Positions 25,481 through 27,653 of a DNA stretch of 47,670 bases are shown here, piece after piece. Numbering within the stretch: position 1 is the first letter of the stretch; every line of letters begins with the position of its first letter. The notes below the pieces were generated by a model. It worked only from the letters and a program-made list of their open reading frames with translations. It did not search any database and was not told where the DNA came from. A program made the position numbers and the translations under genes. The stretch is from a virus (lineage: Duplodnaviria; Heunggongvirae; Uroviricota; Caudoviricetes), in IMG/VR virus record IMGVR_UViG_2627853701_000003, one strand, 5' to 3'.

Positions 25481-27653
25481 AAAAATACACCGGCCCATAT
25501 TTATGCCGGAAACGGCAATTTTGTGGGGGACGGGATCCGCCAGGCGATGCTGGCCCGTGCCGGATTTGAAAATGTCGAGAAGGATAACGCCTATAACGGG
25601 ATGACCCTGCGTGAATGGGCTCGCATGTCACTGACGGAGCGCGGTATTGGGGTGGCCAGTTATAACCCCATGCAGATGGTCGGGCTGGCGCTGACGCACA
25701 GCACCTCTGATTTTGGCAATATTCTGCTGGATGTGTCGAACAAGGGGCTGATCCAGGGCTGGGAGGAATCAGAAGAAACCTTCCAGAAGTGGACCCGTAA
25801 GGGACGCCTGTCAGACTTCAAAACAGCGTATCGCGTGGGGATGGGCGGTTTTGGTTCTCTGCGCCAGGTTCGTGAGGGGGCGGAGTATAAATACATCACC
25901 ACCTCAGATCGCAAGGAGACCATTGCACTGGCCACTTACGGGGAGATTTTCTCCATCACCCGCCAGGCCATTATCAATGATGATCTGAATATGCTGGTGG
26001 ACGTGCCGATGAAGATGGGGCGTGCGGCGAAGGCAACGATTGGTGACCTGGTCTACAAGGTGCTGACGGATAACCCGAAACTGTCCGACGGTAAGGCGCT
26101 GTTCCATGCCGATCACAAAAATATTGCCACCGGGGGGGATCTCCGTTTCCGGACTGGATGCGGCCCGTCAGATGATGCGCCTGCAGAAAGAAGGCGATCG
26201 TGCCCTGAATATCCGTCCGGCCTTTATGCTGGTACCGGTGGCACTGGAGACGGTGGCGAACCAGACCATCAAATCGGCCAGTGTGAAAGGGGCGGATGCA
26301 AACGCCGGTGTCATTAACCCTATCCAGAACTTTGCTGAGGTGATTGCAGAAGCGCGTCTTGATGCGGCAGACCCGAAAACCTGGTATCTGGCGGCGGCAC
26401 AGGGCACTGACACCATTGAAGTGGCCTGGCTGGATGGTGTGGACACGCCATACATTGATCAGCAGGAAGGTTTCACCACTGACGGCATTGCCACAAAAAT
26501 CCGTATTGATGCCGGAGTGGCACCACTTGACTGGCGCGGGCTGGTGCGTTCGTCGGTGGCCTGATAACCGCGTTATCACAATCACTGCCCGAAAGGGCTT
26601 TTTTTATGCCTGAAAAACAGCCCCACAGGGGCTGTCCGGAGAAACAGCATTATGGCGAAAAATTTTGTACAGGACGGTACCACCATTGAACTGGTGAATG
26701 CCGGAGATCAGACCATCCTGAGCGGTGCTGCGGTGGTGGTCGGCAGTATGGTGGCCGTGGCCATTACCGATATTCCTGCCGGTGAGGCCGGTGACGGTTT
26801 TGCCGAAGGCGTGTTCCTGCTGCCCAAACAGTCTGCTGACGACATTCAGTCCGGCGCGGTGGTTTATCTGAAGGACGGGGTTGTGCAGCTGGCTGCAGAC
26901 GGTGCGGTGGCAGCGGGGGTAGCCTGGGAAAATGCCCCTGCAAACAGCGCCACTGTGGCGGTAAAAATCAATGTCTGATCTGTTTACGCGAATGTGTTGC
27001 CGGATGGACGTGGCGACCGTTCGGGTGATGGGCAAACAGGCGGAGATTAACGGCGTCGTGTACGACGTGATGCCGGAGGAAGAGTCCGCGGAGATGGGGG
27101 CGCTTTCGGGCAGCCAGTTGTCACTGGTGGTGTTTTCAGCCCGGTACCGTCCGGCCCGTCATGATGTTGTTGTGTTTGCGGGGCGCACACTGACGGTGAC
27201 CCGTTATGACACGTACAACGGTAAACCCCGGATTTTTGTCGAACAGGAATGAGTATGGCAATAAAAGGTCTGGCGCAGGCCATGAAAAATCTGGATGCAA
27301 TTGATCGCCGTGCCGTTCCCCGGGCCTCTGCCACGACACTGAACCGAGTGGCGGGGGCCATTATTGCGAAAACGGCCTCTTCAGTTGCCAGGGAGCTGGC
27401 CGTTCCCCGTCGTCTTATCCGTGCCCGCATCCGGTTAAGTCCGGCACGACCGGATAAGGTTTACGCAAAGGTTTACATCAATACCGGCAACCTGCCCGCC
27501 ATCAAACTGGGGGAGGCCCGCGTTCGACTTTCCCGCAGAAAACGGAGAAAGAAAGGACAGCGTGCGGCCCTGAAAGGGGGCGGCAGTGTGCTGATTGTGG
27601 GGAAAAGACGGATCCCGGACGCCTTTATCACCCGGCTGGCTAACGGACGCTGG
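25481..27653 (+). repeat. copy 1 of a 2.17-kb direct repeat (capsid 3' half, DUF2190-like gene, FII-like gene, 5' part of Z); copy 2 is 31644-33815
   Basis: Near-identical to 31644-33815 (one extra G in a G-run at about 26132-26138 and one substitution seen); the ORF track shows identical proteins at 26652-26978/32814-33140 and 26971-27252/33133-33414. Confidence 0.9.

What the first reader, a model, noticed from the sequence alone, without database searches (positions are those of the whole stretch)
25481..27653. 2.17-kb direct repeat: a second copy of capsid-to-Z DNA joins the broken endolysin to a headless terminase
Positions 25481-27653 are nearly identical to 31644-33815 (offset about 6162 bp). 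The downstream copy is in native context (capsid 3' half, DUF2190-like gene, FII-like gene, Z 5' part). The upstream copy starts abruptly inside R and ends abruptly inside the large terminase, replacing Rz, the small terminase and the terminase N-terminus. It differs by one extra G in a G-run, which frameshifts the capsid fragment, and one substitution. This is either a real illegitimate recombination scar or an assembly artefact across a repeat.
Basis: seen in the sequence. Interest (0 to 1): 0.6.

Follow-up and report, generated by a model that had tools for sequence, protein, structure and literature searches.

The report
Probable misassembled repeat in O157 prophage
The 2.17-kb repeat is really in the sequence, but it sits in an Ion Torrent-based assembly of E. 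coli O157:H7 strain SS52 and is most likely a piece of a sister prophage put in the wrong place, not a biological rearrangement.

Summary
Positions 25481-27653 repeat 31644-33815 with one substitution and one extra G. The copy replaces the lysozyme 3' end, Rz, the small terminase gene and the first 243 codons of the large terminase. Exact protein look-ups tie the window to the mlrA (yehV) prophage of E. coli O157:H7 SS52 (CP010304). That genome was built from 169-nt Ion Torrent reads by de novo plus reference-guided assembly and closed by hand. Neither junction occurs in 5,426 complete E. coli genomes, 50,697 phage records, IMG/VR, GTDB representatives or JGI metagenomes. The junction fusion protein exists only in SS52's own record. 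The orthologous prophages of TW14359 and EC4115 are single-copy and intact. The 3 kb left of the junction is a patchwork of two paralogous prophage alleles with private indels, and it degrades to 93% identity at the junction. SS52's assembly is reported to lack the sister prophage up to gene Z, and it annotates a Z C-terminal fragment at about that distance from the window, which complements the extra piece here. I rate an assembly artefact at about 0.8 and a real illegitimate-recombination scar at about 0.15. Reads, PCR or long-read resequencing would settle it. Interest is low.

The parts
25035..25480 (+). Lysozyme (R) remnant. It keeps the first 446 of 534 nt. It has private indels at 25050-51 (+AA), 25206 (-G) and 25443 (-1), and 6 mismatches in the last 24 nt before the junction.
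   Evidence: Pfam PF00959 profile positions 27-106/125. Alignment to EC4115 and TW14359 lysozymes. The last 150 nt are at best 93.4% identical to any of 10,726 lysozyme places in 4,423 genomes.
25481..27653 (+). Upstream (extra) copy of the capsid 3' part through the Z 5' part, 2173 nt.
   Evidence: It has 0 mismatches and 1 gap against TW14359 and RM6067W.
25481..26564 (+). Capsid-domain fragment (codon 300 to stop of the ClpP-protease/major-capsid fusion gene), frameshifted at the G7 run 26132-26138.
   Evidence: Pfam PF25209 split 7-131 and 131-262 over two ORFs. The 256-aa product equals AJA26938.1 of SS52.
26652..26978 (+). Second copy of the DUF2190 / Phage_cement_2 gene.
   Evidence: PF09956, E 6.6e-19.
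26971..27252 (+). Second copy of the FII-position gene (Pfam Gifsy-2 family; RefSeq name 'DNA breaking-rejoining protein').
   Evidence: PF13856, E 6.7e-14. RefSeq annotation of the orthologues.
27249..27719 (+). Z' fusion ORF: Z codons 1-135 (to 27653) followed by 21 out-of-frame codons read from terminase DNA.
   Evidence: PF06763 profile 1-132/190. The 154-aa form equals AJA26934.1, found only in SS52.
27652..29046 (+). Large terminase remnant from codon 244. It lacks ATPase profile positions 1-184 and has no start codon of its own at the junction.
   Evidence: PF05876 positions 185-247/247 plus a complete PF20454. Alignment to TW14359 terL.
31644..33815 (+). Native copy, in context within capsid 30747-32726, cement 32814-33140, FII-like 33133-33414 and Z 33411-34040. 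It carries a private synonymous A at 32096.
   Evidence: The A allele is absent from 5,426 genomes.
22568..25480 (+). Flank whose consensus alternates between the two paralogous prophage allele types, with at least 7 switches and some patches under 40 nt, plus private indels.
   Evidence: Site-by-site table against five references. The stretch 24440-25480 is at best 97.9% identical to any complete genome, against 99.9% or more for the rest of the window.

Best explanation
The duplication is an assembly or finishing artefact in the deposited chromosome of E. coli O157:H7 strain SS52 (CP010304). Closely related complete genomes (TW14359, EC4115, SS17) carry two near-identical lambdoid late regions. 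One lies in the mlrA (yehV) prophage, which is this window (P1). The other lies in a prophage about 1.15 Mb away (P2). That SS52 itself has both copies is inferred, not shown. Reads of 169 nt cannot separate the two copies. A 2.17-kb piece running from the capsid 3' half to the Z 5' part most probably belongs to P2, directly upstream of the Z 3' fragment annotated there. That piece was set into the gap between the lysozyme end and the next P1 contig, which starts inside terL. The true P1 sequence in that gap is 2.5-3.2 kb: lysozyme 3' end, Rz, the intergenic region where cos is inferred to lie, the DUF1441 small terminase gene and terL codons 1-243. The extra G is an Ion Torrent homopolymer error. 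Shown here: the provenance, the uniqueness of the junctions, the mosaic flank and the complementary Z fragment. Inferred: that no read spans either junction, and that the piece derives from P2.
For: Provenance. Three frameshift or fusion products of the window exist only in SS52's record, which is a single 5,488,700-bp contig. They are AJA26946.1, and AJA26938.1 and the junction protein AJA26934.1. SS52 was sequenced with Ion Torrent PGM at a mean read length of 169 nt. It was assembled de novo and by reference, closed by manual primer walking, and anchored only to a BamHI optical map (PMC4395050). SS52 is not in the RefSeq complete-genome collection searched here.

Uniqueness. The 300-nt junction probes found no place covering 80% or more in 5,426 E. 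coli genomes or in 50,697 phage records. Exact junction 36-40-mers are absent from IMG/VR. The left-junction 36-mer is also absent from GTDB representatives and from JGI metagenomes.

Orthologues. The mlrA prophages of TW14359 (99.9% identical on both sides) and EC4115 are single-copy with an intact R-Rz-DUF1441-terL region.

Local quality. Positions 22568-25480 switch at least 7 times between the two paralogue allele types. The private indels are mostly homopolymer-length changes. The last 150 nt before the junction are at best 93.4% identical to any known lysozyme.

Repeat boundary. The copy starts 40 nt after the last site that distinguishes P1 from P2. Beyond that site the two are identical for more than 5 kb.

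Complementary gap. The SS52 authors report that SS52 lacks SS17 positions 1,726,958-1,765,158, which ends exactly at the end of P2's Z CDS. SS52 also annotates a 72-aa Z C-terminal fragment, AJA25698.1, about 1,230 genes (about 1.2 Mb) from the window's Z. That matches the P1-P2 spacing.

Two alleles. The two copies carry different bases at 25933/32096. The extra copy has the base common to all other genomes, as expected if the copies come from two physical paralogues.

Optical map. The swap replaces a 0.98-kb BamHI fragment with a 2.08-kb one and changes a 27.2-kb fragment to 25.6 kb. An optical map could easily miss that.
Against: No reads were available, so the lack of junction-spanning reads is inferred. 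Both junctions fall at non-homologous positions, with 0 and 2 nt of microhomology. That is not where graph-based assemblers usually misjoin, so a manual or scaffold-level join has to be assumed. The right end of the piece (Z nt 405) and the terL breakpoint do not coincide with any paralogue-distinguishing site or natural mosaic boundary that I could find. In other genomes the same 72-aa Z ORF arises from frameshifted full-length Z genes. AJA25698.1 therefore does not by itself prove a truncated Z at P2. SS52's P2 locus could not be read.
Confidence: 0.8

Rival explanations
1. The structure is a real scar of illegitimate recombination in SS52's mlrA prophage. One route is a double template switch, in which a break in the R-terL region is repaired by copying 2.17 kb from 4 kb downstream. 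Another is a 6.16-kb tandem duplication (terL codon 244 to Z codon 135) followed by a 6.46-kb deletion from the lysozyme gene into the first capsid copy. Either way the prophage has lost its terminase ATPase, small terminase, Rz and probably cos, so it could not package its DNA.
For: The junctions have 0 and 2 nt of microhomology, as expected for non-homologous joining. The structure can be written as duplication plus deletion with a net change of only -295 nt. The authors closed the genome by primer walking with Sanger reads, which could in principle have verified it. O157 prophages are known to decay through deletions and IS activity (PMC5359411).
Against: The structure is seen in no other genome, phage record or protein set. 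It needs two illegitimate joins. The sequence next to the left junction is degraded and chimeric, which a clean recombination event would not cause. The extra copy does not carry the private base of the copy it would have been templated from, although that base could have arisen later. The complementary missing segment at the sister prophage is hard to explain under this reading.
Confidence: 0.12
2. The left junction is a real deletion linked to IS629 and its excision enhancer, located in one of SS52's two prophages. That would be a lysozyme-to-capsid deletion like the cro-to-capsid deletion of strain 86-24. Only the right junction (Z'|terL') would then be an assembly misjoin that merges the two prophages.
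For: Independent natural breakpoints lie within 25 nt of the copy's start. IS629 is inserted with a GGG target duplication at window-equivalent 31619-31621 in strain 3384. A deletion endpoint lies at 31627 in an 86-24 derivative, at the chromosomal position of the sister prophage. IS629 is present in this prophage at 12198-13508.
Against: Neither junction carries IS629 sequence or an IS end. The breakpoint is 23 nt from the known insertion site, not at it. The lysozyme side of the junction is noisy. That IS-excision-enhancer activity causes flanking deletions is recalled from the literature and was not tested here.
Confidence: 0.06

Closest known systems
Misplaced or collapsed repeats in short-read assemblies of E. 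coli O157:H7 prophage regions
   Same: Several near-identical lambdoid late regions occur per genome. The 6.5-kb lysis-to-portal query (window 23500-30000) found 8-15 places per O157 record, and the capsid-to-Z module found 2-3. The window shows a mixed-allele consensus and homopolymer indels. The literature states that short reads cannot resolve these paralogous prophages (PMC5359411).
   Different: The junctions are not at shared sequence, so a simple graph misjoin does not explain them. A manual or scaffold-level placement has to be assumed.
stx-negative lambdoid prophage at mlrA/yehV of clade-8-type O157:H7 (orthologues in TW14359 and EC4115; the same attachment site as Stx1 prophage Sp15 of Sakai)
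   Same: The integrase lies next to the mlrA 3' part. IS629 interrupts the P gene. There is a DLP12-like ybcK-to-emrE block. Q, the tRNA genes, the DUF6645 gene, the lysis cassette and the lambda-like head and tail genes are all present. Identity is 99.9% over 1-24444 and 27652-47670.
   Different: The orthologues have one capsid-to-Z segment and an intact lysozyme, Rz, DUF1441 and terL. They do not have the frameshifts seen here.
Natural deletion and insertion alleles of the same capsid gene (IS629 insertion in strain 3384; cro|capsid deletion in the 86-24 derivative NADC 5570)
   Same: Their breakpoints lie 17-25 nt from the start of the SS52 copy. They inactivate the head genes of the same prophage family.
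   Different: They are simple insertion or deletion events in PacBio-era complete genomes. They involve no duplication, and their junction sequences differ from this one.

Membership tests
Assembly artefact (misplaced repeat piece) | The junctions are not reproduced in any independent assembly of the same or related strains. | tested here: met
   No junction-spanning match in 5,426 E. coli genomes, 50,697 phage records, IMG/VR, GTDB representatives or JGI metagenomes. The junction protein occurs only in SS52's record.
Assembly artefact (misplaced repeat piece) | The sequencing and assembly method cannot resolve the repeat. | tested here: met
   Ion Torrent reads of 169 nt, de novo plus reference-guided assembly, manual closure. 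The repeat is 2.2 kb within tracts of more than 5 kb that are identical between paralogues.
Assembly artefact (misplaced repeat piece) | There are local signs of a collapsed or chimeric consensus next to the junction. | tested here: met
   At least 7 allele-type switches in 2.9 kb and private indels. Best identity is 93.4% in the last 150 nt.
Assembly artefact (misplaced repeat piece) | A complementary piece is missing at the locus the segment belongs to. | tested here: inconclusive
   The paper reports the sister prophage missing up to Z. A 72-aa Z C-terminal fragment, AJA25698.1, lies about 1.2 Mb away. The same ORF can also come from a frameshifted full-length Z, and the locus itself could not be read.
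Assembly artefact (misplaced repeat piece) | No reads or read pairs span the junctions, and read depth is inconsistent with two copies at this site. | not testable with these tools
Real segmental duplication by illegitimate recombination or template switching | There is short microhomology at the novel junctions. | tested here: inconclusive
   0 nt at the left junction and 2 nt (GG) at the right. This fits non-homologous joining but also fits arbitrary abutment of contigs.
Real segmental duplication by illegitimate recombination or template switching | The new copy carries the private variants of its template. | tested here: not met
   The native copy has a private A at 32096. The extra copy has the common C. 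A later mutation could explain this.
Real segmental duplication by illegitimate recombination or template switching | The structure is inherited, so it appears in related isolates. | tested here: not met
   It is absent from all related O157:H7 genomes searched.
IS629-mediated rearrangement | An IS629 end or target-site duplication lies at a junction. | tested here: not met
   Neither junction carries IS sequence. The nearest known IS629 site is 23 nt away.

The most novel reading that the evidence does not exclude
The arrangement physically exists in SS52. Under that reading, a one-off templated patch repair or a duplication-plus-deletion replaced the lysis end, the cos region and the terminase start of the mlrA prophage with a copy of its own capsid-to-Z DNA. 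The left end would fall in a 25-nt stretch of the capsid gene that has broken independently in at least two other O157 strains, which would hint at a fragile or IS629-targeted site.
Probability: 0.15. Interest if true: 0.3.

Novelty: not a real feature. Interest (0 to 1): 0.1.

Why it matters
The finding matters mainly as a data-quality flag. CP010304 has been used as a reference 'complete' O157:H7 genome in comparative prophage studies. If the mlrA prophage is misassembled, then gene counts, prophage typing, 'defective prophage' calls and SNP or indel lists for this region of SS52 are unreliable. That could include the reported 37-kb difference from SS17. If the structure were real, it would be one more way a lambdoid prophage becomes locked in the chromosome, which is of modest interest.

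Tried and rejected
1. I first compared the window with a RM6067W prophage (L001). That turned out to be the paralogue, not the orthologue. The true orthologues are the mlrA prophages of TW14359 and EC4115.

2. I tested whether the right end of the copy (Z nt 405) is a natural mosaic boundary. All 534 records with this Z region match through it, so this gave no support.

3. I tested whether the private A at 32096 is shared with other strains. That would have shown the extra copy was not templated from the native one. There was no match in 5,426 genomes, so the result is neutral.

4. Two-piece hits near the terL breakpoint in O111:H8 turned out to be an unrelated 44-bp tandem duplication 35 nt downstream.

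5. I looked for a lambda-type cosN 12-mer in the replaced region. Only 2-mismatch matches turned up. The loss of cos is therefore inferred from gene order, not shown.

6. I tried to fetch SS52 DNA through exact-protein contig look-ups. SS52's record is not in the positional index.

7. In other genomes the 72-aa Z fragment comes from frameshifted Z genes, so I use it only as supporting evidence.

8. BamHI sites near three of the four parental breakpoints looked suggestive. They lie at different offsets, so no restriction-site join explains the junctions.

9. I considered that the duplication had been planted in the window. I rejected this because the junction fusion protein and the frameshifted capsid fragment are in the GenBank annotation of SS52.

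Full report
**Observation.** A self-comparison of the window gives a single long direct repeat: 25481-27653 (2173 nt) against 31644-33815 (2172 nt), 99.91% identical. The two differences are C at 25933 against A at 32096, and a G7 run at 26132-26138 against a G6 run at 32295-32300. The substitution is synonymous. The extra G splits the capsid fragment into two ORFs. Pfam confirms every part:
- a lysozyme fragment (PF00959, profile 27-106/125);
- two halves of a phage capsid domain (PF25209, 7-131 and 131-262);
- a cement/DUF2190 gene;
- a Gifsy-2-family gene at the FII position;
- Z positions 1-132 of 190;
- a large terminase that keeps only ATPase profile positions 185-247 plus the complete nuclease domain.

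**What was replaced.** In related prophages the lysozyme fragment ends 88 nt before its stop, and the terminase resumes at codon 244. The segment between them is 2,468 nt in EC4115-type prophages and 3,205 nt in TW14359. It holds the lysozyme 3' end, Rz, the intergenic region upstream of the small terminase gene, the DUF1441 small terminase gene and terL codons 1-243. In TW14359 it also holds an antirepressor gene. By analogy with lambda, cos should lie in that intergenic region. I could not identify it by sequence, so its loss is inferred. The junctions share 0 nt (left) and 2 nt, GG (right), with the parental sequences. Z' runs on for 21 out-of-frame codons into terminase DNA.

**Where the window comes from.** The window is a whole prophage. 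It runs from an integrase next to the 3' part of mlrA (yehV) to the tail-fibre genes. It is 99.9% identical to the mlrA prophage of O157:H7 TW14359 over 1-24444 and 27652-47670, and close to that of EC4115 on the left. Exact-sequence look-ups among about 15 billion proteins found three abnormal products of the window only in E. coli O157:H7 str. SS52, on one 5,488,700-bp contig:
- the 234-aa frameshifted DUF6645 fragment (AJA26946.1);
- the 256-aa frameshifted capsid fragment (AJA26938.1);
- the 154-aa Z'-terminase junction fusion (AJA26934.1).

The duplication is therefore part of GenBank record CP010304 and was not introduced afterwards. SS52 is not in the RefSeq complete-genome collection used here, which explains the absence of a self-hit.

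**How that genome was made.** The genome announcement states Ion Torrent PGM sequencing with a mean read length of 169 nt and a mate-pair library. Assembly was de novo and reference-guided with SeqMan NGen, closed by manual primer walking with Sanger reads, and anchored to a BamHI optical map (PMC4395050). O157:H7 genomes hold many near-identical lambdoid late regions. The 6.5-kb lysis-to-portal query (window 23500-30000) found 8-15 places in each listed record, and the capsid-to-Z module found 2-3 places per O157 genome. Others have noted that short reads cannot resolve these paralogous prophages (PMC5359411).

**Uniqueness of the junctions.** Probes of 300 nt centred on each junction never matched across the junction in 5,426 complete E. 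coli genomes or in 50,697 phage records. Exact junction 36-40-mers are absent from IMG/VR. The left-junction 36-mer is also absent from the GTDB species representatives and from JGI metagenomes. The orthologous prophages have one copy and an intact R-Rz-terS-terL region.

**Quality of the flank.** I compared the window site by site with five reference prophages.
- Positions 22568-25480 alternate between two allele types: the TW14359 mlrA type, and the type shared by EC4115's mlrA prophage and the SS17/RM6067W sister prophage. There are at least seven switches in 2.9 kb, and some patches are under 40 nt.
- Indels found in no reference lie on top of this. They are at 22241 (C3 to C2, which frameshifts DUF6645), 24435, 25050-51, 25206 (G3 to G2) and 25443, plus the G7 run in the copy. 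Most are homopolymer-length changes, the typical Ion Torrent error.
- The stretch 24440-25480 is at best 97.9% identical to any complete genome. Its last 150 nt are at best 93.4% identical, with 6 mismatches in the final 24 nt. The rest of the window is 99.9% or more identical to relatives.

A clean recombination event would not degrade its flank. A mixed pile-up of reads from two paralogues that ends in a poor contig or read end would.

**The sister prophage (P2).** In TW14359, EC4115 and SS17 a second prophage about 1.15 Mb away carries the same head and tail module. That SS52 physically carries it too is inferred, not shown. P1 and P2 differ at a few sites up to window-equivalent 31604 and are then identical for more than 5 kb. 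The repeat starts at 31644, 40 nt after that last distinguishing site. I noticed this after the fact, but it is what a collapsed-repeat contig boundary would look like.

The SS52 authors report that SS52 'lacks' SS17 positions 1,726,958-1,765,158. The end coordinate is exactly the end of P2's Z gene. SS52's annotation contains a 72-aa Z C-terminal fragment (AJA25698.1), which starts at the first ATG after codon 135. It lies about 1,230 protein numbers, or about 1.2 Mb, from the window's own Z. That is roughly the P1-P2 distance. The deposited assembly therefore has a Z 3' part without its upstream genes at P2, and an extra capsid-to-Z-codon-135 piece in P1. The two are complementary. One caveat applies. 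In other genomes the same 72-aa ORF results from frameshifted full-length Z genes, and I could not read SS52's P2 locus.

The two copies also differ at 25933/32096. The extra copy has the base found everywhere else, and the native copy has a base seen in no other genome. This fits two physical paralogues and does not fit a fresh copy of the local template, although a later mutation could also explain it.

**Why the optical map would not catch it.** The assembled version predicts BamHI fragments of about 25.6, 2.08, 4.09 and 2.08 kb. The TW14359 arrangement predicts 27.2, 0.98, 4.07 and 2.08 kb. That fragments this small are hard to size on optical maps is general knowledge and was not tested here.

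**Verdict.** The most likely explanation, at about 0.8, is a finishing error. A 2.17-kb piece of the sister prophage was placed in a gap of similar size in the mlrA prophage, and the extra G is a homopolymer miscall.

Several points count against this. The junctions lie at non-homologous positions, so a manual or scaffold-level join has to be assumed. Neither the Z nor the terL breakpoint coincides with any paralogue or mosaic boundary that I could find. No read-level data were available.

A real scar, by double template switch or by duplication plus deletion, remains possible at about 0.12-0.15. One observation keeps this open. The copy's left end lies within 25 nt of two independent natural breakpoints in the same capsid gene. 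These are an IS629 insertion at 31619-31621 in strain 3384, and a cro|capsid deletion endpoint at 31627 in an 86-24 derivative.

Reads, a PCR across the region, or long-read resequencing of SS52 would decide the matter.

**Comparison with what is known, and novelty.** The element is an ordinary stx-negative lambdoid prophage at mlrA/yehV of clade-8-type O157:H7. The duplication belongs to no biological family. It is best filed as a probable misassembly in a published 'complete' genome. Its practical value is as a warning about prophage-level conclusions drawn from CP010304.

Noticed in passing
window 31619-31644 (capsid gene nt 873-898); L006 9276-10591; L007 8995-9005: Three independent breakpoints fall within 25 nt of each other. 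IS629/IS1203 is inserted with target duplication GGG in O157:H7 strain 3384. A deletion joins a cro-like gene to the capsid gene in the 86-24 derivative NADC 5570. The SS52 repeat starts here too. The site may be an IS629 target or a fragile site at the boundary between the protease and capsid domains.
   Followed up: partly
L004 about 4035-4122 (O111:H8 TW05614 Stx1a prophage terL): A 44-bp tandem duplication in the large terminase gene lies about 35 nt downstream of the SS52 terL breakpoint. The gene is annotated as frameshifted. In the same prophage only an 81-nt lysozyme 3' remnant follows stx1B.
   Followed up: partly
window 26132-26138 and 32295-32300: The G run in the capsid gene also varies in length in other public assemblies. 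Proteins P0033 and P0034 read ATGD, and P0032 reads ATGGL. The run is either prone to sequencing error or truly slippage-prone.
   Followed up: partly
window 21598-23543: The DUF6645/DUF1737 gene downstream of Q and the tRNA genes is split by a 1-nt deletion at 22241 (C3 to C2). It is 648 aa and intact in relatives. The cause is probably another homopolymer error.
   Followed up: partly
window 12198-13508 and 13900-18300: IS629 interrupts the replication gene P. A low-GC block related to prophage DLP12 (ren, emrE, ybcK recombinase, ybcL, ybcM, ybcN) lies between the replication and Q regions. Both features are shared with TW14359 and EC4115.
   Followed up: no
window 20835-21086: ARAGORN finds three tRNA genes downstream of Q: one with anticodon CAT (called Met here, annotated as Ile in RefSeq relatives), Arg-TCG and Arg-TCT.
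   Followed up: no
window 36800-47125 against EC4115 (L002): EC4115's mlrA prophage has the tail region of the sister prophage, at 97% identity against 99.9% in TW14359. This fits an inversion or exchange between the two prophages in EC4115 or in its assembly.
   Followed up: no
L011 876-1498; L013 1288-1910: In some other E. coli assemblies, including Logan read-run assemblies, gene Z is split into 134-aa and 72-aa ORFs by a 1-nt deletion. Frameshifted Z alleles therefore seem to exist in nature as well.
   Followed up: no
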